DNA of 64,000 nucleotides from Pyrodictium sp. Lineage in GTDB: Archaea; Thermoproteota; Thermoprotei_A; Sulfolobales; Pyrodictiaceae. The stretch spans positions 60,050-124,049 of the forward strand of contig JABXKE010000002.1 in NCBI GenBank assembly GCA_013540595.1. The letters run 5' to 3'. The notes under the pieces were generated by a model, which was not told the origin of the DNA, did no database searches, and saw only the letters and a list, made by a program, of their open reading frames with translations. Shown one piece after another: positions 31,439 to 60,072 of the stretch (the first letter of the stretch is position 1; the number at the start of each line of letters is the position of its first letter). The translations under genes and the position numbers were made by a program.

Positions 31439-32542
31439 GTGATGTATAGGTGTAGATCCATGTTTGCAAAACACCCTCTTGAGCACGTGAAAGAGAAGCT
31501 CTCTGAGAGCGACCTCCTTGATGCTCTTAGATTAGCCATTATAGCTGAGCTTGATGCTGTGAGTTTCTATCTACAGATAGCTGCTAGGAGTCCACGTGAG
31601 GATGTTAGGAAGGTTTTTGAGGATGTTGCTAATGAGGAGAAGACTCATGTTGGCGAGTTCTTGGAGTTGTTGAAGCGCCTTGATCCACGACAAGCCGAGG
31701 AGCTTGCCAAGGGGCGTATGGAGGTCTTAGAGATTATTGGTGGTAAGAACGGTGGAGGAGGCGCTGTAGCTACCACAGGTAGTAGCGGAGAGAATAGTGG
31801 CAGTAGCGTGAGTATTGAGAGTGCTGTGGCTAGGTTGTTCCGTGAAACAGCTAATGCTAGCAGGGTTCTCCGCAGGTATTTGCCAGTGACTATTGTTGGT
31901 CCAGGCGTTGACTATGTGGCTGCGACGAGTGTAGGCTATGGCGAGGAGGGGGTTACTGTTGTCTCAGAGAGTATTGTGCCGTTGAGAGATGTCGTTGTGG
32001 AGTTTACTGTGCCAGAGAAGGTTGTTGAGAGGAGTTTGAGGTTTAATGGTTCTCTTGAACCAATAGTTGACTATGCTGCACGCAAGTTTGTAGTTGCCGA
32101 GGAGAAGATAGTTGTTAGCCAGCTAGTGGAGGCAAAGGGCGTTCTTGAAAAGAATATTGGTGCGTGGGACAAGCCTGGCGAGGCTGTAGACGATGTAGCT
32201 AAGGCTGTTTCTATGCTTGAAGCAGAAGGGTTCAATGGTCCATTCACTCTACTCGTGCCAGTACAGAGGTATGCACGGCTACTAGCTGTCTACGAGAAGA
32301 CTGGCGTAATGGAGCTTTCTAGGCTTGAGAAGCTAGTCAAAGTGGTTCGCACACCTCTGCTCCATGAGAACACCGTAGTCTTACTAGCCGCGCAGAGCAC
32401 TGTGGCAGATATAGTCGTGAGTGTTGACACACGCGTAGACTACCTTGGCCTCGAGACAAGTGGCCACAGGTTCAAGGCATGGGAGACTATTGCGTTGAGG
32501 ATAAGTAATCCACGAGGCATAGTACTAATGAGACAAGGCTAA
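31439..32542 (+). CDS. Encapsulin nanocompartment shell protein (family 1, HK97 fold) with an N-terminally fused ferritin-like cargo domain, of the Pyrococcus furiosus PfV type.
   Basis: The N-terminal LRLAIIAELDAVSFYLQIA...EEKTHVGEF is almost identical in pattern to the ferritin-like diiron motif of the PfV fusion. A Gly/Ser-rich linker follows. The C-terminal PFTLLVPVQRYARLL...HRFKAWETIALRISNPRGIVLM matches the encapsulin A-domain and C-terminal strand. Confidence 0.85.
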   Translation: MMYRCRSMFAKHPLEHVKEKLSESDLLDALRLAIIAELDAVSFYLQIAARSPREDVRKVFEDVANEEKTHVGEFLELLKRLDPRQAEELAKGRMEVLEIIGGKNGGGGAVATTGSSGENSGSSVSIESAVARLFRETANASRVLRRYLPVTIVGPGVDYVAATSVGYGEEGVTVVSESIVPLRDVVVEFTVPEKVVERSLRFNGSLEPIVDYAARKFVVAEEKIVVSQLVEAKGVLEKNIGAWDKPGEAVDDVAKAVSMLEAEGFNGPFTLLVPVQRYARLLAVYEKTGVMELSRLEKLVKVVRTPLLHENTVVLLAAQSTVADIVVSVDTRVDYLGLETSGHRFKAWETIALRISNPRGIVLMRQG

Positions 32543-39767: not shown

Positions 39768-41441
39768 TTAGTGTTGTGTCTTGTTGAGGCAGTACTCTCT
39801 CTTTGCGTGTTGGAGTGTTATTCTCTCCTCGTTGAGGTCGTTGATTATTTTTTCTCTTGGTCTTTGGCATGGGTTGCCGTAGCCTCCGCCGCCGGGGGTG
39901 TTAATGTATACTGTGTCTCCGGGTTCGAGCTTGATGGTGGCCTTTGCTCCGAGTTCTATGATTTCTCCATTGTGTTTTACTATGTAGTGGTGGCTTGGTG
40001 CGCCTGGTTTTCCTCCTTTGAGCCCCCATGGGCGTAGTCTGTAGCGTTCTGAGAAGACTGTGAGTATGGCTTCTTCTAGTACTTGGAAGGCTCGTGTTAT
40101 TCCTAGCCCGCCACGGTACGTGCCGGGGCCTCCGCTGTCTGGGCGTAGTTCGTAGGCTTTGAAGAGTACTGGGTACTCGGACTCTATGACTTCTATTGGT
40201 GTGTTAAGTGTGTTAGTCATGTTGGTGTGGACGCCGTCGACACCGTCACAGCATGGTCTGCCTCCTGTGCCGCAGCCTATTGTCTCGTAGAAAGCCCATC
40301 CATTCCCGCCGAGAGTTATATTCGTCATGGTTCCGCAGCTTGCGGCTGGTACGCGTTCGGGAAAGGCTTCTGCGAGGGCGCGCAGGACAACGTCTGCTAT
40401 TCTCTGAGAGGTCTCGACATTGCCTCCCCCAACAGGTGCTGGTGGGACCGGGTTCACGATGCTGCCCTTGGGCGCGTGTATGCTTACTACTCTGTAGAAG
40501 CCATGGTTCATAGGCATCTCAGGGTCTATGACTGATTTAAGTGCAAAAGTTGTAGCTGCAACAGTTACACCGTAGACAGCGTTTAGGGGCTCGTCGACCT
40601 GCTTGTGTGAGCCCGTGAAGTCTACGTGGATGCTGTCACTCCTAATTTCTACTCGGGCACGTATTGGTGCTAAGTCGCCGTTGCTAAGCTCTAAGTAGTC
40701 CTCTGCATCGTAAACACCAACACTGCCATACTCCTCGACTAGTCTCTGGAGCCTACTCCTGGTATACCTTTCAGTGTAGCGCAGTATTTCCTCCCATGCA
40801 CTTAGCAGTGTCTCGACGCCATACTTCTCGGCTAGCTCACGTACACGTTGCTCTCCAAGGTTTAGTGCTGCAAGCTGCGCCATGAGGTCGCCCACAAAGT
40901 ATCTTGGCGTGCGCACATTGGCTTTTATTAGCCTTATAACGTCTTCTCTAAGCTTTCCAGCTTCGACAATCTTAACAGGCGGTATTACTGTGCCTTCCTC
41001 TAGGAGGGAGCGGGCACTGCCGCCGATGCTTCCAGGAACACTTCCACCAACATCAACATGGTGTGCCTTGTTTGCTACTAGTGCTACAAGCCTCCCACCA
41101 ACATATACTGGCTTGATAACCATCAAGTCGTTTAGATGTGTGCCAGATATGTAGGGGTCATTTGTTAAGACCACGTCGCCAGGCCTTAGCTCCTCTCCAT
41201 ACTCCTCAAGCTTTGATACGAGGTTCTTGGCGCCTACAGGCATGCTCCCAAGGTGTACTGGGATATGCTCTGCTTGGGCTAGTAGGTCGCCATTAGGTGT
41301 TAGTATCGCGCAGCTATGGTCTAGCCTATCCCTTATGTTGGGGCTGAAAGCCGTGTTGCGTAGTGCGACACCCATCTCTTCTGAAGCGTATATGAGCGCG
41401 TGTCTGATCACTTCAACAGTTATAGGGTCAACCCTGCCCAT
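39768..41441 (-). CDS. Hydantoinase B / 5-oxoprolinase B-subunit family (HyuB).
   Basis: 557 aa with Hydantoinase_B-family conserved blocks. It is directly downstream of the HyuA-like gene. Confidence 0.85.
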   Translation of the reverse strand: MGRVDPITVEVIRHALIYASEEMGVALRNTAFSPNIRDRLDHSCAILTPNGDLLAQAEHIPVHLGSMPVGAKNLVSKLEEYGEELRPGDVVLTNDPYISGTHLNDLMVIKPVYVGGRLVALVANKAHHVDVGGSVPGSIGGSARSLLEEGTVIPPVKIVEAGKLREDVIRLIKANVRTPRYFVGDLMAQLAALNLGEQRVRELAEKYGVETLLSAWEEILRYTERYTRSRLQRLVEEYGSVGVYDAEDYLELSNGDLAPIRARVEIRSDSIHVDFTGSHKQVDEPLNAVYGVTVAATTFALKSVIDPEMPMNHGFYRVVSIHAPKGSIVNPVPPAPVGGGNVETSQRIADVVLRALAEAFPERVPAASCGTMTNITLGGNGWAFYETIGCGTGGRPCCDGVDGVHTNMTNTLNTPIEVIESEYPVLFKAYELRPDSGGPGTYRGGLGITRAFQVLEEAILTVFSERYRLRPWGLKGGKPGAPSHHYIVKHNGEIIELGAKATIKLEPGDTVYINTPGGGGYGNPCQRPREKIINDLNEERITLQHAKREYCLNKTQH

Positions 41442-41456
41442 GCGCTACCACCACTC

Positions 41457-43520
41457 TTATAGCCTTGTTATTCTTAGTGAATGGAACTCATCGACGTAGG
41501 CCTCAAAACTTGGTGGTATGAGTATTGTGCTGTCATCACTCTCCACGATTGCTGGCCCTTGTATCCTGGCGCCTGGCTTGAGCTTTGGCCTCCAATATAC
41601 TGGTGTTGTAGTCCACCCTGTTTCCTCAAAGAATACTAGTCTCTTTTTCTCTGGTTCGGGCTTGTAGGGGGATGGTTTGCTTCTTGGAAGCTGTGGCTTT
41701 GGAATAAATCCTACGGCGACAATCCTAGCATTGACAACGACTACCGGCTCGCCTCTCAAGTCATAGCCGTACCTGGCCTTATGCTTCTCGTGGAAGGACT
41801 CTACGGCCTCTTCTATACTGCCGCGGTATGGTACAGTTAGTTCATATGCTTGGCCGAGATACCTCATGTCAAGCAACCTAGTTACATGGATGTTTTCCTC
41901 TTTAACACCCTCTGACAGAAGCATCTTAGTAGCCTCGTCTTCAAGCTTTGAGAAGGCCTCCTCGAGATCGTGGCCGCTGAGCTCGTCAGCTCTCTTGACA
42001 ATGGCTGTGTAGAGGTCGTGTCTATAGTCTGTGACCAGTAGTCCAAGCGCAGAAAATACTCCGGGCAGCGGGGGGACAATCACCTCCTTTACACCTATCT
42101 CTGAGGCGAGGAGAGCAGCGTGGAGTGGTCCTGCGCCGCCAAAGGCGTACATGGAGAATTCTCTTGGGTCAAACCCTCTCTCAATACTTACAAGCCTTAG
42201 TGCACGAGCCATAATAGTGTTAGCTATTTTGATTATTGATGCTGCCACCTCAACTATGCTTAGCCCAAGCTTGTCGGCTATCTTTGATAACGCTTTTTCT
42301 GCAAGGCTCTTGTTGAGTTGCAGTCTGCCGCCTGCAAGCTTGCCGGGGAGGCGGCCAAGCACGTAGTTCGCGTCTGTTATTGTTGGCTCAGTGCCGCCCC
42401 TACCATAGCATGCTGGGCCTGGGTCAGCTCCGGCGCTAACAGGGCCGACACGTAGTGCTCCGCCAGGGTCTATCCATGCTATTGTGCCCCCGCCAGCGCT
42501 GACCTCTGCAAGGTCTATGTAGGGGTACCGGACAGGGTACCCGGAGCCCCTTAGAAGCCTGCCCATGTGGACTTTTCCGCCAACCTCGTATTCATGCACT
42601 ATTAGCGGCTCCCCGTTGACTACTGTGGAGGCCTTTGCCGTGGTCCCGCCCATGTCGAAGCCTAAGGCCTTGTCTACGCCCATAAGCCTAGAGAAGTAGG
42701 CTACTGCAACAGCACCAGCAGCAGGCCCACTCTCAATAAATGCTGCAGGATAGCGTGTAGCCTCACTACTATCAGCTACACCACCACTACTCTGCATGAC
42801 AAGTAGCTTCCCGCGAAAACCATTCTTTCTCAATTCATTTAAGACGACCTCTATATACCTTGAAAGGAGGGGTTTGAGTAACCCGTTTACTACTGCTGTA
42901 CTAGTACGCTCATACTCTTTAGGCTGGGGATCAACTTCAGAACTAGTAACAACAATAGCCTTAGGGCATTCTCTTAGTATAATCTCTTTAGCTTTTAGCT
43001 CGTGAAGCGGGTTACGGTAACTATGAAGGAAAGAGACCACAAATACCTCGGCACGGCCACACCATTCACGAGCTATGCGCCTAACAGCGTCCCCGTCAAG
43101 AGGCTCCAACTCTCTGCCATCAGAACCTATGCGCCCCCTGACACCAAACCTCCTAGAGCGCGGTATTAGGGGTCTTGGACGCTCAAAGAATAGGTTGTAT
43201 AGTTCTGGCCTATTCTGCCTGCCAATCTCTAAGACATCACGGAAACCATTATTAGTCAACAAGACTGCTGTAGGGAGTTCTAAGCCTACTTGGCCGAGGA
43301 AAGTATTTGTGCCAAGAGTTGAGGCGTGAACAACTATTTCTACGCTATCTAGGCTCCAGCCAAGCCGTGTAATAGCCTCAAGGAGGCCGCGCCAGGGCTC
43401 GCGGGGAGTAGTCAGTACCTTCAAATGATGAAGCTCACCAGATTCATCATCAAAGCCCACTACATCAGTAAAGGTGCCACCAATATCAATACCTATTCTC
43501 CTAGCCATGACCCACACCAC
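41457..43520 (-). CDS. Hydantoinase A / 5-oxoprolinase A-subunit family (HyuA).
   Basis: N-terminal actin-like ATPase motif [14 protein letters not shown]. Length 687 aa. Confidence 0.9.
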
Positions 43521-43573
43521 CAGCCAAGACTACACTTTATCAACATAGAGTTCAGGGGTGCAAAAACAACATG

Positions 43574-43796
43574 CTACAATCCCAGATAAGCCTCCCTGAT
43601 CTTGGGGTCTTTCTCTAACTCTTCTGGCGTACCTTCACGCACAATCCTTCCAGTCTCAAGTATATACGCCCTATCAGCAACCTTTAATGGCATTCTCACA
43701 TTTTGCTCGACAAGAAGCACAGTTACACCATACTCATCCCTCAGCCGCTTAGCAAGAAGTATGACCTCTCTAGCAAGCTTAGGGCTAGACCCAGGC
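43574..43796 (-). pseudogene. C-terminal 74-codon fragment of a LivF-type branched-chain amino-acid ABC transporter ATP-binding protein. The N-terminus is deleted.
   Basis: Minus-strand translation gives PGSSPKLAREVILLAKRLRDEYGVTVLLVEQNVRMPLKVADRAYILETGRIVREGTPEELEKDPKIREAYLGL*. This matches the LivF C-terminus exactly in pattern. There is an in-frame stop immediately upstream and no start. Confidence 0.6.
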
Positions 43797-44820
43797 TAGG
43801 CCCATAAAGCATAAGGGGTTCCAACACTGTCTGAGCATCCTAGTAGTGGTCAGCATTTACTGTCCCCCACCACTAAGGGTGCAAGCTAGTTTTTCCTCCT
43901 CTTCAATATTATATTGGAAAGGATATTGTAGACTGCCCCTAAGCTCTCTTTAAAACTGTCTTGGCTCTCCTAGTGCAGTACTACCACACAACTACACAAA
44001 TCCTCATACGAGGCGGGCCTCGAGAGGACAACTCTAGCCTCAGCACGCTCGTATGCAGACACGAGTACAGTATCCTCTCCATGCCAGAAAAGCCCTCTCA
44101 CCATGGAAAACATGCAGAATATATTAGGAACCATAAACTGGGCCCAAAAGGATAAGAGTAACTGTAGTTAATGCAGTTTAGAATCCCTCGAAGAGCTGAA
44201 GCGGATAAAAATTGTCTGGACGGCACTATGCATGAGTAAAGCTAACGTGAGGGAAGCAGAAAACTCCTGACAAAAATACTGTTTTAACATTGCCGGCTTA
44301 GGGAAGTTTATAGTGGAGAGGAACATCACCAAAGAGGGCATATAAGCTTATTAGGGGCCTTAATCTCGCTCATGCAGGCACTGTTCGCCACGTATACCGG
44401 TCAAGGTACAATAAAGGATGTAGACTAGCTAGAGAGGGTCTAGGCCTATTATTCGTATCAGGTAACACTGCTGAGGAAACCCAGTATAACAAGGACAAGA
44501 CTCGGGATGGAGTGTTAATAGTGAAGCGCCTTTAAATCTTTAATATTAATATTCTGGCTCAGCATCCCACAGACTTGCCCTGGTGCTCGCCAGCGTCTCT
44601 CTTTCGTGATGTTCAGGGACTTACTAACAATTATCTTATCTTGAACTAGTTACTTTCTAGTAACACCCCCTAGTACTAGGAAGACAGCTATTTTATAATT
44701 GAATTGGGGCCACGTACTGGCTAGTCTTGTGTCCATAATTGCTTGGAGGCGCTTATGTCTAACGAGTTTAGATAGATCCGTGAGAACAAGTAGTAATGGT
44801 GTTGTACAGGTGTTTTAGAT

Positions 44821-45243
44821 ATGAGGGCTAGGGGTGTATCAGTTGTAATAGCTGCTATAATAATGTTTACGTTCCTCATAATTGCAGTGATACCACTTAT
44901 GCTTAGCCTCCTAAAGAGTGGGACACAGGAGCCCATAGCCATAAGTGTTCTTGCGTCATCAAAGGTTAGAGAGTCAACGCCGTCACTTAACATTACTGTT
45001 GATTATGATAAGAGTAATGATACTACTAGGGTGTATCTTGTCGAGAACATTGCTGCTGAAGAGAGGAAGGCTACACTTCTTATAGTCCAAGACGACAACA
45101 ATGGTATATACTTTGTCCGGCCTGGAGCATGCATACAGACTCCATGCAGTGCAGGTCTTGCCTCCGTCAAGGTGGACTTGCTGCGTGGCGCGCAAGGAGT
45201 AAATGAAAGCATAGTGTTGGACCCTGGGGCGCCTATATGGTAG
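44821..45243 (+). CDS. Archaeal type IV pilin-like protein with a class III signal peptide.
   Basis: N-terminus MRARG|VSVVIAAIIMFTFLIIAVIPL: a short basic leader, then G, then a long hydrophobic helix, typical of PibD-processed pilins. Confidence 0.55.
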   Translation: MRARGVSVVIAAIIMFTFLIIAVIPLMLSLLKSGTQEPIAISVLASSKVRESTPSLNITVDYDKSNDTTRVYLVENIAAEERKATLLIVQDDNNGIYFVRPGACIQTPCSAGLASVKVDLLRGAQGVNESIVLDPGAPIW

Positions 45244-46994
45244 CTATAACTTCTGGCAAGCTCTTAGGCGCTTATACTGGCGTGTCAGGGTATTCTCCAA
45301 CACGCTCTTCTCCGACGAGAGTTGTCGAGAAGGCATTATATGCAGAGGTTGCTGGCTCGGTTCAGACAAACTTCCTGAACATGACACTGTTTAGTAGCCT
45401 TGAAGACCTAGTAAACAAGAATGCTGGCGTAGTACTAACAACAGACCCTTCAAGTAATACTAGTGACACATCAATACTCTACACAGGTGTTATGAAGGCA
45501 CTTTGCGGGACTAAGGGTAGTAGGAAGGAGGGCTCATTCCAGCCGTACACTTCTGAATGGCTAACTTATGATGGTCTGCTCCTATACAACCTCTACCCCC
45601 TCTATGGCAGCTTCGTCGTTGGCGGTCTAGGCGGAACGTATGGTGATGTGTATAACACTAGCCTACTCGTAGTCTTCGGTAGGATAGACCTGCATGACAG
45701 CAGTAAGCCAGGCATAATTGCTGCTCTCCGCAACGGTTACTGGTTTGTACTGATAATAACTCGAGAAGGCGTAGTAGAATTGAAGAGTAGTACACTGCCT
45801 TCAAGCCTAAGTAGTCTAATGCAGTTCTTGAAGAGCAGAATTGACACAAGTAGGGTCTACACTAAATACGGGGCGTCTAGCGGTAAGAGAAGCCTACCAA
45901 GTACTGGTGTAGTAGTATTTGACGAGGCGGGCTATGGGCTTGTAATGACGGCAGACCAGTACGTCGCTTACTGTACTCCAGACATGTTCATTGTTGCCTC
46001 AGAAGCCCCAGGCTACATAGTGTTAAGGTTAACAGAGTGCCCTGCAGTAGACACTAACCAGCTCACCATGGGTATTGTAAACGCGACAATCATAGTAGAC
46101 TCTTATGGTTATGCAGAGACAAGAGGAGGAAAAGGATACTATGGATACGATGAGACAGCCTCAATAAGTGATGGCGTATACTCTGAAGAGTACACACTGA
46201 GATCCTCCACACTATCAAAGTCATATACAATGGTAAGGTTCAAACTTGTGGGTGAGACCTCCACACTATCCACATACGATGGCGGGGCAGGAAGAACCTA
46301 TCATGGCGTTGACGCCTTCGGGTTCTACTACTATTCAGGGACAGAGGCCTCCCACGGCATACTAGTGTATGGGCTTAGGTGGGCTAAGGCTAAGATGTTC
46401 TATTTTAGTGCAGGGGCTGGCCCAGGAGGCGTTGACCCATACTTCTTGTTTGCTGACACTGACGGTAACGGACTTCAAGAGATGGTCTTCATGACTGAAG
46501 ATGCTGAGCCCGGGTACTGGTATACAATCAATGATATAACTTCAGGAAACAACTATGGATGCCTTGACTGGAGTGTACAGCCTCTATACTTGAAGTTTAT
46601 TGGTGACCAGTACTTTGTTAATGGTAGAGAGTACGCTCAGGTCTCAATACAGGTACGCTACACATTCCACGACAATGCTGGCAGTGATACTGATGAGGTT
46701 GATGATCCGAAGAAGTACATCTTTAGCTTCCAGGTGACAAGCCTCAATGGCTCAGTATTCATGACTGCTGACTACATATACCAGCTACTCGACGATCTAG
46801 AGGACACTTGGCCGCCGAACCAGAACTGGGTCTCAGAGAGCGTGTTCTTGCTTGTGCCTAATAGAGATGAAAACTACACTATAGCGTTTAGCTTCATGGA
46901 TCCCTACAGCTACGCTACACCACTAACAGGGATGGATGACGTTGACTTTACTGTTGCAATAGAGTGGATAGGGCTTTGGAGGTTGCGGAGGTGA
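45237..46994 (+). CDS. Large Tyr/Gly/Thr-rich hypothetical protein (585 aa) with no signal peptide of its own. It overlaps the pilin gene by 7 nt (ATGGTAG) and may be a frameshift-split C-terminal domain of a pilin-adhesin.
   Basis: ORF only. A DTDGNG Ca-binding-like loop is present. No TM segment. Confidence 0.4.
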   Translation: MVAITSGKLLGAYTGVSGYSPTRSSPTRVVEKALYAEVAGSVQTNFLNMTLFSSLEDLVNKNAGVVLTTDPSSNTSDTSILYTGVMKALCGTKGSRKEGSFQPYTSEWLTYDGLLLYNLYPLYGSFVVGGLGGTYGDVYNTSLLVVFGRIDLHDSSKPGIIAALRNGYWFVLIITREGVVELKSSTLPSSLSSLMQFLKSRIDTSRVYTKYGASSGKRSLPSTGVVVFDEAGYGLVMTADQYVAYCTPDMFIVASEAPGYIVLRLTECPAVDTNQLTMGIVNATIIVDSYGYAETRGGKGYYGYDETASISDGVYSEEYTLRSSTLSKSYTMVRFKLVGETSTLSTYDGGAGRTYHGVDAFGFYYYSGTEASHGILVYGLRWAKAKMFYFSAGAGPGGVDPYFLFADTDGNGLQEMVFMTEDAEPGYWYTINDITSGNNYGCLDWSVQPLYLKFIGDQYFVNGREYAQVSIQVRYTFHDNAGSDTDEVDDPKKYIFSFQVTSLNGSVFMTADYIYQLLDDLEDTWPPNQNWVSESVFLLVPNRDENYTIAFSFMDPYSYATPLTGMDDVDFTVAIEWIGLWRLRR

Positions 46995-47000
46995 AGTACT

Positions 47001-47600
47001 GTGATGGGACAGTCTAATGTTATAGCGACAGTGATCATGGTTGGTATAGCTATAACTGTGGCACTAGGCTTCATAAGTTATGTCATACCACTAGTTGTCA
47101 ACGCTCGTGTCGAGCAGAGTATATCTATGCAAGCCTCGAGAATCGGTAGCGATGTCAGTGTCGGTGTTGCATCAAGCCTCAACAACTCTGTTGGCCGTGT
47201 AGTGGTTTTCGGTGTTAGTAGCAAGACTAGTGATGTTGGCCTCTACCTCGCAGTACTAGGGTTCAAGGACAATTATCCTGTAGAGGCTGCTGACATAGCC
47301 TTGTACACTATGGCTCAAAGTGTTGCTGCAGCCAATACTACTGATGGCTGGAGCCTAGTCTCATGCGTTGTTGTGCCAGGAGAGAATGTGAGAGTCTATG
47401 TTCAGGGAGAATTCTACAAATTGTCATTGTTTAGGATTGAAAGTGTCAAGGTCTGTCCTCTAGGCATAATAAAGCCTGGTAATGAGAGCTTCTACCGCGT
47501 AGAGATAACTAGCCAGTCAACAAACACGACTTACCTTGGAGTAGTCTTGGCAAACATAAATGGTGACTACACTTCTGTGGCATACTTCAATACGGGATAA
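47001..47600 (+). CDS. Archaeal type IV pilin (class III signal peptide, DUF361-like N-terminal domain).
   Basis: MMGQSNVIATVIMVGIAITVALGF is the canonical G|Q-S-x-V-I-A-T-V pre-pilin motif. Confidence 0.65.
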   Translation: MMGQSNVIATVIMVGIAITVALGFISYVIPLVVNARVEQSISMQASRIGSDVSVGVASSLNNSVGRVVVFGVSSKTSDVGLYLAVLGFKDNYPVEAADIALYTMAQSVAAANTTDGWSLVSCVVVPGENVRVYVQGEFYKLSLFRIESVKVCPLGIIKPGNESFYRVEITSQSTNTTYLGVVLANINGDYTSVAYFNTG

Positions 47601-47665
47601 GCCTCTAAGGGTTAAGCACTAGTAGTTCTGTGCTCTTTCAGTGTTAGAGGAGAGGTTCTATTGTC

Positions 47666-48430
47666 TTGAAGATTAGTAGGCGTCGACTCATCGCTCTGGC
47701 TGGCATAACATTGTTAGCTTATACTCTTCCCGGCCTGCGTAGTGGTCGAGAGGTTGTAGTTACAAAGATCCCTGTTGGTCTTGGTCGTCGTGTTCTCTTT
47801 CTCTCTGATGTACACTTGCATCGTAGGGGTGAGAGAGACTATGTTGTCAAGGCTGTTGAAGATGTTAGAGGCGACATAGTTGTTCTCGGAGGCGATTTAT
47901 GGGACTCGAAAACCAAGAATTTTGATGTTGTGGCCGAGTTTGTTGAGGCTCTAAGGAGGCTTGCTGGAGCTGTGATACTTGTGCCTGGGAACCACGAGTA
48001 CTGGGCTGATAAAGATGGTGTTGTTTCGTTGGATGACGCTATTAAGAGGCTCGAGTATCGTGGCGTCATAGTGTTGAGGGATGAAGCTATAGAAGCTAGA
48101 GGGCTACGTATAGGCGGGTTTGACTGGCACGACAACCCTCGCGATTACGGTGCTGCTGCTAAGCGTGTTGGAGCCATAGAGCTTGCTGTGTCACATTCAC
48201 CTGACGTGTTTCCACACCTCACAAGCAGTCAGCGTTTCCTTGCTGCAGGACATACTCATGGCGGCCAGGTGTGTCTCCCCGGAGGCTATGGCGTCGTGAC
48301 CAACAGCGTATACGGCTACAAGTGGGGCTTCTACCGTGAAAAAGACAAAGAAATGTACGTCTCGAGGGGTCTTGGCGAGAAGTATCCTCCACGAATCTAC
48401 TGTGCACGCGAGGTAGTCGTGATGGAGTAG
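47666..48430 (+). CDS. Tat-signal calcineurin-like metallophosphoesterase.
   Basis: Twin-arginine signal SRRRLIALAGITLLA. MPP motifs LFLSDVHLH, GGDLWD, GNHEYW, GHTHGG. Confidence 0.8.
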   Translation: MKISRRRLIALAGITLLAYTLPGLRSGREVVVTKIPVGLGRRVLFLSDVHLHRRGERDYVVKAVEDVRGDIVVLGGDLWDSKTKNFDVVAEFVEALRRLAGAVILVPGNHEYWADKDGVVSLDDAIKRLEYRGVIVLRDEAIEARGLRIGGFDWHDNPRDYGAAAKRVGAIELAVSHSPDVFPHLTSSQRFLAAGHTHGGQVCLPGGYGVVTNSVYGYKWGFYREKDKEMYVSRGLGEKYPPRIYCAREVVVME

Positions 48431-49044
48431 TGCTCGTTGAGTGTGACTTCTATGATGCACTTGACCGCCTCAACAATCTCTCTTAGCGGCATAGAGTATT
48501 CAGTTTTATGTCTTAATGCTAGCTCCGTACTTGGTGGCACATGTATAAAGCCGCCTGGTACACCATGTTTGCTCGCATAGTCTAACAATAGATACCCCGC
48601 CACACCACACAAGTAGGTACCTATGCTGACGCCAGGCCTAACATTAAGTCTCCGCTTAATTCTACACTCCCTAATAATACTCTCTACTGGGAGCCTCGTA
48701 GGGAGAACCCTGACACGCGTAGCCCTATCAACATAGTCGTACTCTATGCGCACACCATCAATGTCCTTACTAGCAAAGCTGGCAACATTAGATGCTGCAA
48801 GCTCAACAATAACACTACGGGCACGAGGGGCAAGCCCTAGGCCTATCACCATAGCCGGCTTCTCCCTCTCAAGCAAGCGTGGGAGGGTGTTCTTGACATA
48901 GTTGTAGGATACCGGTATAATCCTAGAGACTACTTGGAAGCCATTAATAGAGGATCCACCAAGTATCCGTGCCGTCTCCTCAGCAGGATTGAGCTGGAAC
49001 AAACCAAAGACACTATAGGCTAAAAGGAGGACGCTAGGCAACAC
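48397..49044 (-). CDS. pcp: Pyrrolidone-carboxylate peptidase (pyroglutamyl-peptidase I, peptidase C15).
   Basis: GTYLCGVAGYLLLDYASKHGVPGGFIHVP matches the Pcp catalytic Cys and His/GFIHVP region. Length ~215 aa. Confidence 0.65.
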   Translation of the reverse strand: MLPSVLLLAYSVFGLFQLNPAEETARILGGSSINGFQVVSRIIPVSYNYVKNTLPRLLEREKPAMVIGLGLAPRARSVIVELAASNVASFASKDIDGVRIEYDYVDRATRVRVLPTRLPVESIIRECRIKRRLNVRPGVSIGTYLCGVAGYLLLDYASKHGVPGGFIHVPPSTELALRHKTEYSMPLREIVEAVKCIIEVTLNEHYSITTTSRAQ

Positions 49045-49118
49045 CCTTACACCCTAAAATAAAAGAGAGCAGTACAATAAGCAATAACTATTTACTCACG
49101 TGTACGGAGACTGAGCTG

Positions 49119-49310
49119 TTACCCCCTCTCTAGCCATACTGAGAGTAGGCGTTGATAGGCTATAATGTATAGGAGGACAAACATGGCACCGTAAAGTATT
49201 AGTAGCCAGTCAGGGGCCTCCTTGTAGGCTACTACAAACATGAACAATATGGGGAGTAGTATGAATACCCAGTCAATTGGCCTCATCCTCCTTGCGGGCA
49301 AAGAAGTCAT
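49119..49310 (-). CDS. Small two-TM membrane protein (63 aa).
   Basis: ORF only, with hydrophobic helices. Confidence 0.25.
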   Translation of the reverse strand: MTSLPARRMRPIDWVFILLPILFMFVVAYKEAPDWLLILYGAMFVLLYIIAYQRLLSVWLERG

Positions 49311-49382
49311 GGCACTTATATCCCTTCCTACACGCTCTAAGCCCTGAGCATGTACCTTAGATACGAGCTACTAGAGGAGGCT

Positions 49383-51008
49383 CTAGCTTTGGGTTGTTAT
49401 GCTTATTGTAAGCGTGTTGTATGAGTGCATAAGCGTTTTGAATGGCACCCCGTTATCTACTAGGCTATGCCACTTGTATACTAGTTCTGTGGTTGGAGTA
49501 TACGCGTACTCGTCAGTGTCTACTCCTTGTCTACGCGCGGCTATTCTTAGTTGTCCCAGTCTCCCACCAAGCTTAGCCCATTCTATAAGCACTCTTGCTA
49601 ATCTCTCGTCTCCCCGAGCTATAACTGCTTGTGCGTAAGCATAGCGGTAGCTTAGAGCGTCTACGCTGAGTACCCTGCTTGAGGCAGTACGCAGCATCCC
49701 TATCCTCCTCATGTAGTCCTTCTCGCTTATCAGCTTGTGGAACTGTAGGGGTGTAAAGGGCTTAGGTATTAGAGGGTTCACAGATACACGCAAAGCTTCT
49801 CTCATAGGTGGCGCTCGCTTTGAGAGTTCGCGCAGGATACTTGCATACATCTCAACGTCCCTATCGCTCTCCCCTGGCAAGCCAAGCATAAGGTAGAGCT
49901 TTACCTTGAGGCCCCGCCTCCAAGCCTCCACACTAACCCTCTGGGTTTTCTCTAGTGGTATACACTTCCCGAGAGCCTTACAGAGTCTTGGGGAGAACGT
50001 TTCTGGGGCTATGGCTACATGCCTCTGCCCAGCACGGGCTATGAGTGCAAGCCTCTCCTCGTCTAGCTGGTCTGCACGAAGACTACCAATAGTTGCTTCA
50101 GCTCCAAAAGACTCTATCACTTCTTCAAGTAACTCATCTGCATTGGGATGGTCAAAGAAGCTTAGTGCGTAGAATGCAACTTTTCTAACCCTGTTAGCCC
50201 CTAAGCCTCTCTCTATGAGTTCTAGGATCCTCTTCTTGCTTCTATGCCTTAAAGGCATGAGGAAGTGCGCCTCCATACAGAATCTACACATGTGTGGACA
50301 ACCTCGGGAGGCTTCAACCATGTATGCTTCGCCCCATGGCTCGCCACTACCAGGAACGCGGAACTGCATAGTGGTATGATAGGCTTTGTCGAGATTTCTA
50401 ATCCATACACGCTTCACTCGCCGACCACAACTCACACTACTCGCTGGCAGGAAGCCAGGCAAGCATGCAAGCACGTCAAAGGCATCCCAGGCACCCCTAG
50501 TATAAGCTTCCTCTACTAGGCGTGGAACAAGGGGTTCAGCTTCGCCAATAAGTACAAGATCACTAATCTCTCTTGCCACTACAGGATTACTACTGGGAAC
50601 GGGGCCCCCAACAACTATGAGGGGTTGATGCTTTCTTCTACGCTCACTACTTGAAGCGTCTATTCCTGCTGATAATAGGAGGCGGAGTAGAGTGACATAG
50701 TCTAGCTCATAGCTTATAGGAGCTATAACTAGGTCAAAGTCTTTGAGAGGACGGCTAGTCTCGATACTCCTAGGAGGAGGTTCGCGGCCAGCCATGCTGC
50801 TCGCTACTACACGCTCGGCATAAACGTAGTCAAGGCTGTTAAGCATATAGTAAAGGTTTTGATAGGCTAGACTAGCAACAGCGGCACTATATACTGCAGG
50901 GTACAAGAGTGCTACACGGAGACAGTCCCGACATCGCTTAATGACTACACCGTGCTCCCTTAATCCCACCTGGTTACACCCACTCCAATCCCGTACATGG
51001 CTAGACAC
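49383..51008 (-). CDS. Radical SAM superfamily enzyme with an N-terminal B12-binding-like domain (Fe-S oxidoreductase).
   Basis: CxxxCxxC cluster motif ASRGCPHMCRFCME. The preceding Rossmann-like domain reads VALLYPAVYS...PLIVVGGP. Length 541 aa. Confidence 0.75.
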   Translation of the reverse strand: MSSHVRDWSGCNQVGLREHGVVIKRCRDCLRVALLYPAVYSAAVASLAYQNLYYMLNSLDYVYAERVVASSMAGREPPPRSIETSRPLKDFDLVIAPISYELDYVTLLRLLLSAGIDASSSERRRKHQPLIVVGGPVPSSNPVVAREISDLVLIGEAEPLVPRLVEEAYTRGAWDAFDVLACLPGFLPASSVSCGRRVKRVWIRNLDKAYHTTMQFRVPGSGEPWGEAYMVEASRGCPHMCRFCMEAHFLMPLRHRSKKRILELIERGLGANRVRKVAFYALSFFDHPNADELLEEVIESFGAEATIGSLRADQLDEERLALIARAGQRHVAIAPETFSPRLCKALGKCIPLEKTQRVSVEAWRRGLKVKLYLMLGLPGESDRDVEMYASILRELSKRAPPMREALRVSVNPLIPKPFTPLQFHKLISEKDYMRRIGMLRTASSRVLSVDALSYRYAYAQAVIARGDERLARVLIEWAKLGGRLGQLRIAARRQGVDTDEYAYTPTTELVYKWHSLVDNGVPFKTLMHSYNTLTISITTQS

Positions 51009-55918: not shown

Positions 55919-57769
55919 CTACCTTATTACGCAGAGACTACTACACTTCTTAGGCCATGCTACTGCATCGTTTTCAGCTATGCAGGCTAGGCATGCTGCT
56001 ACTTGGCTTGCTGTAGGCCTCTCTTCTGGGTTGTCTGAGAGCATTCTCTCGATAAGCGATACGACAATGTTGGCTGGGCCTTTTACACGTATTATGCTCG
56101 CTATCTTGCTCGTGTCACAGATCATTCCTTTTTCATGGCTTAGCTTGCAGAGCTTGCTATGTTTTAGTCTAACTATCTGCTTTTGGTTCATCCCGGTTAG
56201 GAGTTGAAGCATTATCATGCCGAGCCCGTACACATCATGGCTTGGCTCTGCCCGAGGAGGCTCACTACATATCGGAGCGCTCTTTCTCCCCATTTCGTTG
56301 CAAACTATATCGTAGCCCTCCACCTCTGGAGCCGCGTAGCCAGGTGTGAGCTGTACAACTGGTGTTTCCAGCCTCACTGCTGCACCTAGGTCAGTGAGCT
56401 TAGGTACTACACGGGCTTCTTCAGGTGTTAGCAGAGCCTTGAGCATTTCTTCAAGGAGCTTCTTGGGTTCTAGTGGGGGCTTAGCTGTGAACAGTATATT
56501 TGTCGGCTTCATGTCCTCGTAGACGTAGCCGCTGCCATGAACGTGGGCTAGTGCTTTTGCTATCACAGCACCCATAGCTGCTGCTGAGCGTATCCACTCA
56601 ACACTATTAGGGTCTAAGAGCCTGGAGCGCATGGCTTCTCTTAGGAAATCGGCTAGGCTGCCGCCGCCAAGGTACTCCATTATTATGGCTGGCGGTGAGA
56701 GCATGTAGACTTCAAGGCTATCATTCATTACTGCTTTGTGGAGCCTCTCAGAGTCTATGTGTATAGCTTTAAGCCTAGCCACATATGGGCTCCTAGCACT
56801 GAGCTCGCGCAAGCTACTAGCTTCTCTCTCTATGTCTTTTGCTATGTCTACAACGCTCCTCACCACCTTACTGGGCGTAGCACCACTAGACTCTAGAGGC
56901 ATAGGGAGTAGTAGTTTTACTGCAGACTTATCAGAAGGGTCTTCACGTGCGTGTGCTCTTACTACTATGCCGAACCCACCCTTGCCGATGTACTCCTCTA
57001 CAACGTAGCCATGGACTTCTCTGCCCTGGAGACACTTTTCTACAATTACCTCTGGATACTTCACAAAAAGAGAGAGCTTAACCTCGCGGCATTCAGGGCT
57101 AACACCCCTGCGGACCACGTGCTTCCCAGTATCCTCACTTGCCTCGGTAACCTTCTCCTCTACTGCAACTCTCCTACTCACAATGCGCAGAGTAGCGTAC
57201 TCTACGACTGTGGAGACTAGAGCTAGGAGCGCAGCTAAGCCGAGTAGAGCTGAACCAGGGTCTATGACGAGACTAGAGCCTGCACCTTCAACGACTATTG
57301 ATCCTGTGTTTGGGTCTACTATGCCAAGCTCTAATATTACGTGGCGGTGGAGGATGTAGAAGAGTATTGGGAGCCCTGTATACATGTTAACGGCTATGAC
57401 TATAGCAAAGAACAAGAGTAGTGAGGGGGTAGCCAGTATTGCTTCCTGCATGTAGTCTAGAGTAAAAGTATGTGTGCTCATGAGGCCCCATACTATTAGG
57501 GGCATTGATAGGCCTAGAGCGCCAAGCGCCGTGGCTGCCGAGCTTAATCCTATACTAGCAAATAAGACACCAGAGAAGACCATGTAGTATGATATGAATG
57601 CGAAGAGCCTAGCAGTACGCACGGGTTCACAGTATATACAGCCTCTAACCCACCACACAAGGGGGTCCAAGTCAACGCCATTACTCACAGCAAGAAGCCT
57701 AGATGCTGTGGCGGCGAGAAGCCCCAAAGCAAGCAATGGTAAGCCAAGCATGATCCGTGACTTCCTCAA
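55919..57769 (-). CDS. Membrane-bound eukaryotic-like Ser/Thr protein kinase (Hanks-type) with an N-terminal polytopic membrane domain.
   Basis: Catalytic motifs: IGKGGFGIVV (Gly loop), AVKLL (VAIK-like), DMKPTNILF (catalytic loop), LTDLGAAV (DFG-like), GYAAPE (APE). The N-terminal ~200 aa contains 6 or more TM helices. Confidence 0.85.
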   Translation of the reverse strand: MRKSRIMLGLPLLALGLLAATASRLLAVSNGVDLDPLVWWVRGCIYCEPVRTARLFAFISYYMVFSGVLFASIGLSSAATALGALGLSMPLIVWGLMSTHTFTLDYMQEAILATPSLLLFFAIVIAVNMYTGLPILFYILHRHVILELGIVDPNTGSIVVEGAGSSLVIDPGSALLGLAALLALVSTVVEYATLRIVSRRVAVEEKVTEASEDTGKHVVRRGVSPECREVKLSLFVKYPEVIVEKCLQGREVHGYVVEEYIGKGGFGIVVRAHAREDPSDKSAVKLLLPMPLESSGATPSKVVRSVVDIAKDIEREASSLRELSARSPYVARLKAIHIDSERLHKAVMNDSLEVYMLSPPAIIMEYLGGGSLADFLREAMRSRLLDPNSVEWIRSAAAMGAVIAKALAHVHGSGYVYEDMKPTNILFTAKPPLEPKKLLEEMLKALLTPEEARVVPKLTDLGAAVRLETPVVQLTPGYAAPEVEGYDIVCNEMGRKSAPICSEPPRAEPSHDVYGLGMIMLQLLTGMNQKQIVRLKHSKLCKLSHEKGMICDTSKIASIIRVKGPANIVVSLIERMLSDNPEERPTASQVAACLACIAENDAVAWPKKCSSLCVIR

Positions 57770-57911
57770 AACACTACCACCGAGCCGTCAGACTCGTGGA
57801 GGCTTCTACTCTCACGCCTAATAGTCTAAACCACAGTTGGCCTCGTACCATGCATAAATGTGGTAGCCCCTACTCATTTCAAACTTGCCCCCCTACCGAG
57901 ACTATCAGTGC

Positions 57912-58820
57912 TTACTTAGCCCCATAGTATAGTGGCTTGATTACCCTTTCTTCAATGTCTACCAGCAGTACTGCCGCTCTTCTACCATGGTACAAGCTTG
58001 AGAATACTGATATGACACAATACTCTAACTCATCGAGCCCCAAAGTAACGCTTACACCATCACTATGGCCTCCATCGCTATGCCATACTAGTACACCGTC
58101 AACAGTCTCGTGAGCCCTAACAAGTACTTTAAGCCTATTCTCTTCGAGAAACTTTCTCCAGGCGCTACGGCCGTAGAGGTATATACCTAGGCCACGTGGG
58201 CTAGGTAGGAACCACTCGATGCCGCCACGCGGGTCGTTCCATAGGGCCTGCATTACTAGGCTGGACTCACTCTCTACTAGTGATGGCGAGCCCTCCTCTC
58301 TCAAGACGCGGGCTTCTCGGGCTATCTCTTCGACACGCACAGGGTCTTCTTCACTATTTGAGCATAGTCTGCAAGGCACACCCCCATGGACGAAGAACAC
58401 CTCGTTGGCCCTAGCAGCTATGGGCAGTGCAGAGTATAGCTTAGCTATGTCATTAAGGTAATCTGGCCCCCTCTTGTTTAGGGCTTCACTATAGAAGCCA
58501 TAGTAGTAGTTCATCTCTAGGTCTTCGTGGTTGCCGCGAAGCATGTAAATTGCTGGGCTGCCATCCTCTAGCAGCCTAGACAGTACCAGTTCAAGGTTCT
58601 CTACGCCCCTGGGCCCGCGATCCACGTAGTCACCGAGGAACAGCACAGCTTCAACGCCCAAGTGCTCAGCAAGCTCTAAAGCCCACTCTGTGACTTCAGG
58701 GTATCCATGTGTATCTCCTACAACAAGAATCCTCGCCGCCTCAAGCTCAAGCACTGGCTCTTGGGCCTTAAGCTTCTCAATAGCTCTACTAAGCAATGCA
58801 TGGTAATCACTACTACTCAT
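57912..58820 (-). CDS. PPP-family Ser/Thr protein phosphatase (PP2A-like metallophosphoesterase).
   Basis: GDxHG (ILVVGDTHGY), GDxVDRG (LFLGDYVDRGP) and GNHE (LRGNHE) motifs. Confidence 0.85.
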   Translation of the reverse strand: MSSSDYHALLSRAIEKLKAQEPVLELEAARILVVGDTHGYPEVTEWALELAEHLGVEAVLFLGDYVDRGPRGVENLELVLSRLLEDGSPAIYMLRGNHEDLEMNYYYGFYSEALNKRGPDYLNDIAKLYSALPIAARANEVFFVHGGVPCRLCSNSEEDPVRVEEIAREARVLREEGSPSLVESESSLVMQALWNDPRGGIEWFLPSPRGLGIYLYGRSAWRKFLEENRLKVLVRAHETVDGVLVWHSDGGHSDGVSVTLGLDELEYCVISVFSSLYHGRRAAVLLVDIEERVIKPLYYGAK

Positions 58821-58893
58821 GGCTTGTTATCCCCCTCTACAACATTGCGAGAGGGCGCCAGGGCTACCTAGCCGTTAGAGGTAGCCGTTTTCT

Positions 58894-60072
58894 TCAGCTT
58901 GATCTAAGCCTTTTTGTTGCTTCACTAACAAGCTTCTTAGTAGCCTCTACAGCCTCGGCTCCACCAAGCCTCTTAGTCACTTCTGCTACTTCTCTCATCC
59001 TCTTCGTCTGCACGATAAGGTCTACCCTCTTAGTCTTCTCGGCAAGCTTCTCAGCCTCTACGAGCCTCTTAGTAGCAGCATCAATGTCTCCTTCGAGAAC
59101 AAGCCTCCTGGCTTGCTCCACGTAGACCTGGTATAGGTAGTAGTCGTAGACCTCCCTATTGATGCCAGCTACGAACTCTTCTCTGCTCTTTGCGGGTGTG
59201 ACTTTGTAGGAGAATTTTTCAACGCTCCTCTCTCCCGTGACGGGGTCCTCGTATGAGACCACTATTAGAGCTACATCACCATAATAGTTTGCTGGTATCT
59301 TGACTTCTCCGTAGAACTCTACCTCCTCGTCTTTTAGGACTGGTATAGTGATTGTGAGGCCGTCATAGCCTATGAATCTTGCAGAGCCCGTAATGGGTTC
59401 AAGGACTACCTCAACATTCTTAGCATAAGCCTCAGACGCTGCTGCCTTCTCGAAGGCCTCTACGAGCTTCTCGAGACCGGCAGTGCTCACGTGCTCGAAT
59501 ACGCCACCACCCTTATCGGCTAGTAGTGCTAGTAACTTCTCGTTGTAGTCGGGTCCAACACCTATAATGTAGGGTTTATAGTTGCTGGGCCACTTGAGCT
59601 CAGCGTATTTCTCCAAGTCTGTCACATCTGTTGGACGCCCATCTGTGAGCAATACTATGAACCCGCTATCACCGCTCTTCTCAGCTATCTCAATAGCCCT
59701 CTTCAACGCGCGGTACAAGGGTGTGCCATCCTCAGGGAATAGACCTTCTACTGCGTCAATTATCTCACTGCGCTCCCTTACAGGGTCACGACGGACAACA
59801 AGCTCTTTAACATGGAATGCTGCCGTGCCAAAAGCTAGTACTGTCACATAGTTGCCCTCCGGGAGCATTTCGACTAACCGTTTGACAGCCTTCTTAGCCG
59901 TCTCTATCTTTCCTCCCCTCATAGACCCACTTGCATCGATCAATACTATGTAGTGGATGCCACTAACCCGGACAGCCCCACGGACTGGTGTGAGCGTAAG
60001 CCTAAATGCCCCTGTTACTGGTGTAGTGAAGCTGCGAGTGTGGCTCTGCTCAAAGCTTACTTGGAGAACCAT
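58894..60072 (-). CDS. von Willebrand factor type A (vWA) domain protein, ArnB-like.
   Basis: MIDAS motif DASGSM in IVLIDASGSMRGGKIETAKKAV. Length 392 aa. It is divergent from the Zn-ribbon/FHA gene. Confidence 0.75.
   Translation of the reverse strand: MVLQVSFEQSHTRSFTTPVTGAFRLTLTPVRGAVRVSGIHYIVLIDASGSMRGGKIETAKKAVKRLVEMLPEGNYVTVLAFGTAAFHVKELVVRRDPVRERSEIIDAVEGLFPEDGTPLYRALKRAIEIAEKSGDSGFIVLLTDGRPTDVTDLEKYAELKWPSNYKPYIIGVGPDYNEKLLALLADKGGGVFEHVSTAGLEKLVEAFEKAAASEAYAKNVEVVLEPITGSARFIGYDGLTITIPVLKDEEVEFYGEVKIPANYYGDVALIVVSYEDPVTGERSVEKFSYKVTPAKSREEFVAGINREVYDYYLYQVYVEQARRLVLEGDIDAATKRLVEAEKLAEKTKRVDLIVQTKRMREVAEVTKRLGGAEAVEATKKLVSEATKRLRSS

What the first reader, a model, noticed from the sequence alone, without database searches (positions are those of the whole stretch)
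44821..47600. Three-gene pilin-like cluster: class-III-signal pilin, 585-aa Tyr/Gly-rich protein lacking a signal, and a second pilin
Both small genes start with PibD-type pre-pilin leaders (MRARG|VSVVIAAIIMF... and MMGQSNVIATVIMVGIAITVAL). The large middle gene has no export signal but overlaps the first pilin stop by ATGGTAG. A 1-nt frameshift would therefore fuse it to the pilin, giving a pilin-anchored adhesin or tip protein. No assembly ATPase or membrane platform is adjacent. A B12-radical-SAM enzyme and a Tat-secreted phosphoesterase flank the cluster, and the ArnA/ArnB-like regulators lie 11 kb away. This could be an undescribed adhesive-filament system in a non-Sulfolobales crenarchaeon.
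Basis: partly seen in the sequence, partly recalled or inferred. Interest (0 to 1): 0.6.

Follow-up and report, generated by a model that had tools for sequence, protein, structure and literature searches.

The report
Frameshift-split modular pilin plus partner pilin
The "three-gene pilin cluster" is really a conserved two-gene pair from a heat-loving archaeon (a large pilin fused to an adhesin-like body, plus a small partner pilin), and in this genome a one-base deletion has split the large gene in two.

Summary
The three ORFs exist as described, but ORF1 (140 aa) and ORF2 (585 aa) are two halves of one gene. All relatives found, 727-874 aa long, encode them as a single protein. That includes cultured Hyperthermus butylicus and Pyrofollis japonicus.

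The window lacks one base in a G-run (45226-45229). The same lesion occurs in three assemblies from at least two samples. It cuts through a beta-strand of the N-terminal pilin domain.

The intact protein has a class III leader, a long helix and a beta-sandwich. This module matches the solved Pyrobaculum calidifontis type IV pilin 8FK7 (E=4e-6). A flexible linker and a ~550-residue all-beta body follow. The body has no global structural match in the PDB.

A ~200-aa pilin-like partner (ORF3) is always adjacent. In more distant Thermoproteota the pair lies inside type IV pilus ATPase/platform operons. In Pyrodictiaceae it stands alone.

The best reading is a minor-pilin adhesin module of an archaeal type IV pilus, recently inactivated in this lineage. 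ORF3 has also lost its conserved leader arginine.

The idea of a self-contained new filament system is not supported.

The parts
44821..46994 (+). Reconstructed single ancestral gene: a modular type IV pilin (class III leader + alpha1 helix + Ig-like sandwich + linker + ~550-aa beta-rich body). In the window it is split into two ORFs.
   Evidence: Orthologues of 727-874 aa cover both ORFs collinearly. The AF2 model of the 84%-identical P0001 has pLDDT 91.9.
44821..45243 (+). 5' fragment (ORF1, 140 aa): leader MRARG|, hydrophobic helix and most, but not all, of the pilin beta-sandwich. The last 4 codons (APIW*) are out of frame.
   Evidence: 86% identical to P0001 residues 1-137. Passes FlaFind. 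The family profile hits P. calidifontis pilin 8FK7 at E=4.3e-6. The split falls inside strand 130-144 of the model.
45226..45229 (+). GGGG run carrying the 1-nt deletion: window CCT GG- GGC GCC TAT ATG, intact relatives CCT GGA GGC TCT TAC ATG.
   Evidence: DNA comparison with L002, L003 and L008. The junction is identical in the window, L001 (JGI 3300033926) and L019 (JGI 3300033925).
45237..46994 (+). 3' fragment (ORF2, 585 aa): the last strands of the pilin sandwich, the linker and the large beta-rich body. It has no export signal of its own.
   Evidence: 84% identical to P0001 residues 140-727. dN/dS 0.09 with no further lesion. Extracellular-type composition with 6 N-glycosylation sequons.
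46455..46481 (+). DTDGNGLQE: the most conserved motif of the family (consensus DxDGNGxxE). It resembles a DxDxDG-type calcium-binding loop.
   Evidence: D546, T547, D548, G549, N550, L552 and E554 are invariant in A1. The motif is kept in the 94-sequence consensus. Calcium binding is inferred from general knowledge and was not tested.
46987..46994 (+). GGAGGTGA, a Shine-Dalgarno-like element that overlaps the stop of the large gene, 6-9 nt upstream of the ORF3 start. It implies co-transcription and coupled translation.
   Evidence: Read directly from the sequence. A similar AAGGTGA is present in L002 and L008.
47001..47600 (+). Small partner pilin-like gene (ORF3, 199 aa). Its leader is degenerate in this lineage: GTG ATG GGA = MMG|QS instead of ATG AGG GG = MRG|QS.
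   Evidence: A homologue is always adjacent to the large gene. hhalign to the pilin module of the large family gives 94.8%, E=5e-8. TIGR02537 scores 15.4 bits, below the cut-off of 20.

Best explanation
The locus is a two-gene accessory-pilin module of an archaeal (clade-4) type IV pilus in a Pyrodictiaceae archaeon.

Gene 1 is ancestrally ~725 aa and is a 'modular pilin'. It has a class III leader, a long hydrophobic alpha1 helix and an Ig-like sandwich. That pilin module is homologous to the solved P. calidifontis pilin. A flexible linker and a ~550-residue beta-rich body follow. The body has jelly-roll (lectin/CBM-like) elements and a conserved DxDGNGxxE loop. Gene 2 is a ~200-aa pilin-like partner.

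Inferred mechanism in intact relatives:
- A PibD-type prepilin peptidase encoded elsewhere cleaves after R-G/A.
- The helices insert into a pilus built by an ATPase and platform protein encoded in trans.
- The body is too bulky to sit within the filament shaft. The large subunit therefore sits at the tip or the start of assembly and serves as an adhesin. The small pilin partners or stabilises it. This follows the S. sanguinis PilA-PilC precedent.

In this window a genuine 1-nt deletion in a G-run splits gene 1. The products would be a truncated pilin fragment and a leaderless body that cannot be exported. Gene 2 has lost its conserved leader arginine. The module is therefore most likely recently inactivated in this lineage.

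Shown: the ancestral fusion, the deletion and its recurrence, pilin homology, the conserved pair, and operon linkage in other lineages.
Inferred: tip location, adhesion, calcium binding, and loss of function.
For: Fusion:
- All homologues are single proteins of 727-874 aa whose N-terminus equals ORF1.
- Eleven loci, plus H. butylicus and Pyrofollis japonicus, show the intact pair.

Deletion:
- Nucleotide alignment of the junction.
- The same lesion in three assemblies from two JGI samples and the NCBI contig.
- It falls inside a beta-strand of the pilin domain.

Pilin nature:
- 76 of 93 family members pass FlaFind.
- The confident AF2 model shows helix 4-52 and sandwich 56-162.
- The profile hits pilin 8FK7 at E=4.3e-6.

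T4P linkage in distant members:
- L016: T2SSE-T2SSF-large-small.
- L017: T2SSF...T2SSE...class III protein-large.
- L023: T2SSE-137-aa pilin-...-small-large-large.
- L024: T2SSF-175-aa-large.

Machinery in trans: cultured Pyrodictiaceae have 3-4 clade-4 ATPases (PMC4858521 Table S3).

Extracellular signature: low K+R, high S+T, and 10-21 sequons per 1000 aa against 0-5 in neighbours.

Recent lesion: dN/dS is 0.09-0.19, the same as housekeeping neighbours, and there is no second lesion in 585 codons.

ORF3 leader loss is specific to the window lineage.

Analogy: the PilA/PilC modular-pilin tip complex (PMC9934059).
Against: - No Pfam or NCBIfam pilin model reaches its threshold for any of the three ORFs.
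- No assembly genes lie nearby in any of the Pyrodictiaceae loci.
- The rest of the window's genome could not be searched. [quoted passage not shown]
- Tip location and adhesion rest on analogy and steric reasoning.
- The very low dN/dS and clean reading frame of ORF2 would also fit a gene that is still functional, whether through an artefact or through recoding.
Confidence: 0.72

Rival explanations
1. The frameshift is a sequencing or assembly artefact. The gene is intact in the organism and the module is fully functional.
For: The lesion is a single base in a G-run. ORF2 has dN/dS 0.09 and no other defect. The supporting assemblies come from sister samples of one project (3300033925 and 3300033926) and may share technology.
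Against: The junction is identical in three separate assemblies, which otherwise differ by SNPs (7 over 17.5 kb for L001). A 4-base run is short for systematic homopolymer error. A second, independent lineage-specific change affects the ORF3 leader and start codon.
Confidence: 0.12
2. The split is bypassed or exploited. Either programmed -1 ribosomal frameshifting or G-run slippage restores the full-length modular pilin in a fraction of products. That would amount to a recoding or phase-variation-like on/off switch for an adhesin.
For: Restoring the frame needs a -1 shift within the 31-nt overlap window 45213-45243. Purifying selection on ORF2 appears undiminished. The stop and start codons overlap as ATGGTAG.
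Against: There is no X XXY YYZ slippery heptamer in the overlap window. Downstream folding is unremarkable (z -0.9 to -2.5). No orthologue has the shift. Only one allele is seen in three assemblies, so there is no sign of length heterogeneity.
Confidence: 0.05
3. The family is not a pilus subunit. It would be a membrane-anchored surface protein that only uses a class III-type N-terminus. Precedents are FlaF/FlaG (S-layer-binding stator proteins) and the Sulfolobus bindosome proteins. The large body would then be displayed at the cell surface and not on a filament.
Against: The best sequence match is a true filament-forming pilin, 8FK7. Four of five distant members examined lie in ATPase/platform operons next to other pilins. 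H. butylicus and P. fumarii have no archaellum-clade ATPase, so a FlaF stator role is unlikely. Stand-alone tandem pilin genes are normal in archaea.
Confidence: 0.13
4. The literal three-gene reading is correct. ORF1 would be a complete small pilin, and ORF2 a separate signal-less protein that works with it.
For: The two ORFs are called separately in every assembly of this lineage. The overlapping stop/start could allow translational coupling.
Against: ORF1 ends inside a beta-strand and lacks the last strands of its sandwich, which ORF2 encodes. ORF2 has secreted-protein composition but no leader. No other genome has this arrangement.
Confidence: 0.03

Closest known systems
[quoted passage not shown]
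   Same: The N-terminal ~140 residues (leader, long alpha1 helix, Ig-like sandwich) are sequence-homologous: profile E=4.3e-6 over positions 5-141. Both are from hyperthermophilic Thermoproteota. Both have conserved cysteines in the sandwich.
   Different: 8FK7 is a 144-aa major pilin that forms the shaft. Here the pilin module carries an extra linker and a ~550-aa body, and a dedicated ~200-aa partner gene is always adjacent.
Bacterial modular minor pilins and their small partner (Streptococcus sanguinis PilC/PilB with PilA; PMC9934059, PMC8179133)
   Same: The architecture is the same: a class III leader and pilin module, a short flexible linker, and a bulky functional module with a jelly-roll/lectin-like element. 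A small pilin encoded next to it is its expected partner. Tip location is expected for steric reasons.
   Different: There is no detectable sequence homology beyond the generic pilin N-terminus. The body is much larger and has no global PDB match. Function, ligand and location are untested. The host is an archaeon.
Large signal-peptide 'minor pilin or adhesin' components, and the PilY-like adhesin, predicted in crenarchaeal clade-4 T4P loci (PMC4858521; preprint 10.64898/2026.04.22.720090)
   Same: Same phylum and same genomic context in distant members (downstream of the platform/ATPase genes). The predicted role is also the same. Stand-alone tandem pilin genes outside the operon are described as common.
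   Different: I could not map this family to a specific arCOG. No PilY1-type beta-propeller appears in the fold searches. This family has a genuine pilin module, whereas PilY1 is a non-pilin.
Archaellum stator proteins FlaF/FlaG (ArlF/ArlG)
   Different: The gene is not in an archaellum operon. Cultured Pyrodictiaceae lack the archaellum ATPase clade. The protein is far larger. The better sequence match is a pilin.

Membership tests
Archaeal type IV pilin-like proteins (class III signal peptide proteins) | N-terminal motif [KRDE][GA][ALIFQMVED][ILMVTAS] followed by a ~20-residue hydrophobic stretch (FlaFind 1.2) | tested here: met
   ORF1 reads MRARG|VSVV with mean hydropathy 3.1. 76 of 93 family members pass (motif from PMC4307647). 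ORF3 itself fails at position -2 (Met), while 6 of 8 orthologues pass.
Archaeal type IV pilin-like proteins (class III signal peptide proteins) | Long N-terminal alpha-helix followed by an Ig-like beta-sandwich | tested here: met
Archaeal type IV pilin-like proteins (class III signal peptide proteins) | Sequence homology to an experimentally established pilin | tested here: met
   The family profile matches 8FK7_A at E=4.3e-6. The small family aligns to the pilin module by hhalign at 94.8%.
Archaeal type IV pilin-like proteins (class III signal peptide proteins) | Match to curated models (Pfam Pilin_N PF07790, Class_IIIsignal PF04021, TIGR02537) above threshold | tested here: not met
   ORF1 scores 11.5 bits on PF07790 (cut-off 25.2). 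ORF3 scores 15.4 bits on TIGR02537 (cut-off 20).
Archaeal type IV pilin-like proteins (class III signal peptide proteins) | Genomic association with a T2SSE-family ATPase and a T2SSF/TadC platform protein | tested here: inconclusive
   None in the window or in any Pyrodictiaceae locus. Present next to distant family members in L016, L017, L023 and L024.
Archaeal type IV pilin-like proteins (class III signal peptide proteins) | Cleavage by a PibD/FlaK peptidase and incorporation into a filament | not testable with these tools
   Needs biochemistry, EM or mass spectrometry.
Modular pilins (pilin module + grafted functional module) | A pilin module joined by a linker to an independently folded extra domain | tested here: met
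   The model shows a low-confidence linker at 165-177 between the pilin sandwich and the 180-727 beta-rich body.
Modular pilins (pilin module + grafted functional module) | The extra module is a recognisable binding domain (lectin, vWA) | tested here: inconclusive
PilY1-like T4P tip adhesins | C-terminal beta-propeller with a calcium-binding site; a non-pilin protein | tested here: not met
FlaF/FlaG archaellum stator | Encoded in an archaellum operon of an archaellated organism; ~150-aa monotopic beta-sandwich protein | tested here: not met
Aap/Ups pilus loci of Sulfolobales | Pilins co-encoded with AapE/F or UpsE/F (and the AapX Fe-S protein for Aap) | tested here: not met
   No ATPase or platform gene is adjacent. 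The nearby radical-SAM gene is not conserved with the module outside close relatives.
Programmed -1 ribosomal frameshift sites | Slippery heptamer X XXY YYZ plus a downstream stimulatory structure, conserved among orthologues | tested here: not met
   No heptamer lies in 45213-45243. Downstream fold z-scores are -0.9 to -2.5. All orthologues are in frame.

The most novel reading that the evidence does not exclude
The single-base change in the G-run may not be a dead end. It could act as an on/off or recoding switch, through -1 frameshifting or run-length slippage, that controls display of a large pilus-tip adhesin. That would be a phase-variation-like mechanism, which is essentially undocumented in Archaea. 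It would act on a Thermoproteota-wide modular pilin whose ~550-residue body has no global match among solved structures.
Probability: 0.05. Interest if true: 0.7.

Novelty: new member of a known kind. Interest (0 to 1): 0.35.

Why it matters
For this window, the practical result is an annotation correction. Two 'hypothetical/FlaF' genes are one disrupted gene. Both it and its partner show lineage-specific damage to their export signals.

At family level, the work defines about 110 cluster representatives across Thermoproteota, including two cultured Pyrodictiaceae. All are annotated 'hypothetical' and none has a Pfam or NCBIfam model. They form a conserved pair of a modular pilin and a small partner, tied to clade-4 type IV pilus operons.

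No archaeal modular pilin or pilus-tip adhesin has been characterised experimentally, to my knowledge. This family, with a confident structural model and a cultured host (H. butylicus A2BMM0), is a tractable candidate. It could help explain how hyperthermophilic archaea attach to surfaces or to each other.

Tried and rejected
- A profile re-search of the word-indexed protein database returned only 2 known proteins.
- The single metagenome scan re-found only two loci already held.
- The afdb50 fold library was unavailable.
- The original FlaFind paper was not held. The motif was taken from a review instead.
- A look-up of P0007's contig failed, so the 1.37-Mb source genome could not be examined for PibD, an ATPase, a platform protein or a second paralogue.
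- Pfam and NCBIfam gave nothing above threshold for the three ORFs or the intact homologues.
- The small-family profile has no PDB sequence match.
- A functional link to the radical-SAM (AapX-like), Metallophos and ArnA/B genes was rejected. These are not conserved with the module across lineages.
- Programmed frameshifting was rejected as the main explanation.
- A decayed Amdase gene upstream was looked for and not found.
- No RNA family or tRNA lies in 43400-47700.
- The sigma-70 promoter/terminator scan was at background and does not apply to archaea.
Full report
OBSERVATION

The three + strand ORFs are present as described: 44821-45243 (140 aa), 45237-46994 (585 aa) and 47001-47600 (199 aa). 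ORF1's stop overlaps ORF2's start as ATGGTAG. G+C content shows no island. Pfam and NCBIfam give no hit above threshold for any of the three.

ONE GENE, NOT TWO

A search with ORF2 found six homologues of 727-853 aa. Their first ~137 residues are ORF1: 86% identity to P0001, which reads ...VLDPGGSYMVAITSGKLL... straight through the junction.

At the DNA level the intact relatives L002, L003 and L008 have GAT CCT GGA GGC TCT TAC ATG GTA. The window has GAC CCT GG- GGC GCC TAT ATG GTA. One base is therefore missing from the G-run at 45226-45229.

The junction is identical in the window, in a contig from JGI sample 3300033926 (L001, 7 SNPs over 17.5 kb) and in a contig from sample 3300033925 (L019). 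The window's proteins are also on record on a 1.37-Mb NCBI contig. The deletion is thus a reproducible feature of this population.

FAMILY AND PARTNER GENE

An exhaustive profile search found 113 cluster representatives. About 20 are full length (750-874 aa). About 90 are shorter (500-640 aa) and share the N-terminus and the C-terminal ~250 residues. The conserved motifs are DxDGNGxxE, FHDNAGxD, YQxLxxxEDTxPPN and DPY...DxDFT. All are 'hypothetical'.

Organisms are Pyrodictiaceae and Hyperthermus-like MAGs. Cultured Hyperthermus butylicus (A2BMM0, 797 aa) and Pyrofollis japonicus (PYJP_02110, 861 aa) also carry the family.

In all 11 Pyrodictiaceae-type loci, and in H. butylicus, a ~200-aa gene homologous to ORF3 follows immediately. 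It begins [RK]-x-Q-[AS]-[EN]-[LVI]-[IV]-[SA]-T. No other neighbour is shared by all loci.

PILIN NATURE

The published FlaFind 1.2 motif (PMC4307647) is met by ORF1 (MRARG|VSVV...) and by 76 of 93 family members.

With a 94-sequence alignment, AlphaFold2 gives a confident model of the intact orthologue P0001 (pLDDT 91.9, pTM 0.77). It shows helix 4-52, a beta-sandwich at 56-162, a disordered linker at 165-177 and an all-beta body at 180-727.

The small family aligns to the first ~88 positions of the large family's pilin module (hhalign 94.8%, E=5e-8).

All three ORFs have a secreted-protein composition compared with their cytoplasmic neighbours. K+R is 5.5-8.6% against 10-15%. S+T is 14-18% against 7-13%. 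N-glycosylation sequons number 10-21 per 1000 aa against 0-5. ORF2 has 8.0% Tyr and ordinary Gly.

LINK TO PILUS MACHINERY

The window has no T2SSE, T2SSF or A24 peptidase gene. Four of five short-form members examined, however, sit in T4P operons:
- L016: T2SSE-T2SSF-large-small, with 3-62-nt gaps.
- L017: T2SSF-...-T2SSE-...-Class_IIIsignal protein-large.
- L023: T2SSE-137-aa canonical pilin-...-small-large-large.
- L024: T2SSF-175-aa-large.

L018 has three tandem large paralogues after a small pilin-like gene.

Makarova et al. record 3-4 clade-4 ATPases and no archaellum ATPase in H. butylicus and P. fumarii (Table S3). [quoted passage not shown] They also note that large signal-peptide proteins in crenarchaeal T4P loci may be 'a minor pilin or an adhesin'. 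A 2026 preprint describes adhesin components in subsystem 4A/4B.

L023 carries a separate canonical 137-aa pilin. This suggests the small + large pair is accessory and not the shaft.

MECHANISM (INFERRED)

This follows S. sanguinis, where the small minor pilin PilA stabilises the modular lectin-bearing pilin PilC in a tip complex (PMC9934059). I propose the following steps:
- PibD-type cleavage.
- Insertion of both helices at the start of assembly.
- Display of the bulky body at the pilus tip as an adhesin.

The conserved DxDGNGxxE loop may bind calcium. None of these steps is tested here.

STATE OF THE WINDOW'S COPY

The frameshift lies after codon 136, inside strand 130-144 of the pilin sandwich. 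ORF1 therefore lacks the last strands of its domain, and ORF2 begins with them. ORF2 has no leader, so any product would stay in the cytoplasm.

ORF3 has GTG ATG GGA (MMG|QS), where relatives at 88-92% identity all have ATG AGG GG (MRG|QS). It has thus lost the -2 basic residue.

Even so, dN/dS against the intact orthologue is 0.19, 0.09 and 0.11 for ORF1, ORF2 and ORF3. This is the same as housekeeping neighbours (0.075-0.185), and ORF2 has no second lesion. The damage is therefore recent. The alternatives are an artefact or recoding.

There is no slippery heptamer and no convincing downstream structure. I rate recent inactivation as most likely, artefact at about 0.12 and recoding at about 0.05.

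VERDICT

This is a new, disrupted member of a known kind, namely archaeal accessory or modular type IV pilins. The family it belongs to is uncharacterised, widespread in Thermoproteota and has no global structural match among solved structures. Interest is moderate to low for this locus and somewhat higher for the family.

Noticed in passing
window 39768-43520 versus 44821-51008 (compared with L002): Divergence from the relative L002 changes abruptly across the 43.5-44.8 kb gap. The two hydantoinase genes have dS 0.15-0.20 (94-98% aa identity). The pilin module and downstream genes have dS 0.5-1.8 (70-87% identity). This suggests a recent recombination or transfer boundary.
   Followed up: partly
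window 43521-44820: A ~1.3-kb ORF-poor stretch lies upstream of the module. Relatives L002, L003 and L008 have an Amdase/Asp_Glu_race-family gene there. The window has no remnant of it, and no RNA gene or tRNA. A 48-aa ORF at 43574-43720 (-) looks, by eye, like the C-terminal fragment of an ABC-transporter ATPase.
   Followed up: partly
window 46992-47003: ORF3 is in the same reading frame as ORF2, separated only by TGA and two codons. The same holds in L002 but not in L004, by coordinate arithmetic. This is probably coincidence and not readthrough.
   Followed up: partly
window 55919-60902: A signalling cluster: Ser/Thr protein kinase (55919-57769, -), Metallophos phosphatase (57912-58820, -), ArnB-like VWA+ArnB_C protein (58894-60072, -) and ArnA-like Zn-ribbon+FHA protein (60228-60902, +). 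Cultured members of this family lack an archaellum ATPase.
   Followed up: partly
window 31439-32542 (+): A 367-aa protein combines an N-terminal rubrerythrin/EncFtn-like domain with a Linocin_M18 encapsulin shell domain. It is a fused cargo-shell encapsulin.
   Followed up: no
window 13794-17551 (-): Four adjacent genes: a mono-haem cytochrome c-like protein, an NrfD-type membrane subunit, a 4Fe-4S cluster protein and a multihaem cytochrome c7-like protein. Together they look like a membrane-bound respiratory oxidoreductase module.
   Followed up: no
L008 and L013 (same MAG, Pyrodictiaceae archaeon S141); L018 6188-11698; L023 9137-13982: The family is prone to duplication. One MAG has two divergent modules (98% and 31% identity to P0001). 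L018 has three tandem large paralogues and L023 has two.
   Followed up: partly
L019 5487-5574 (= window 46129 onward): The end of this JGI contig diverges completely from the window after position 46128. This gives a spurious 312-aa ORF (P0013). It is probably a chimeric contig end.
   Followed up: no
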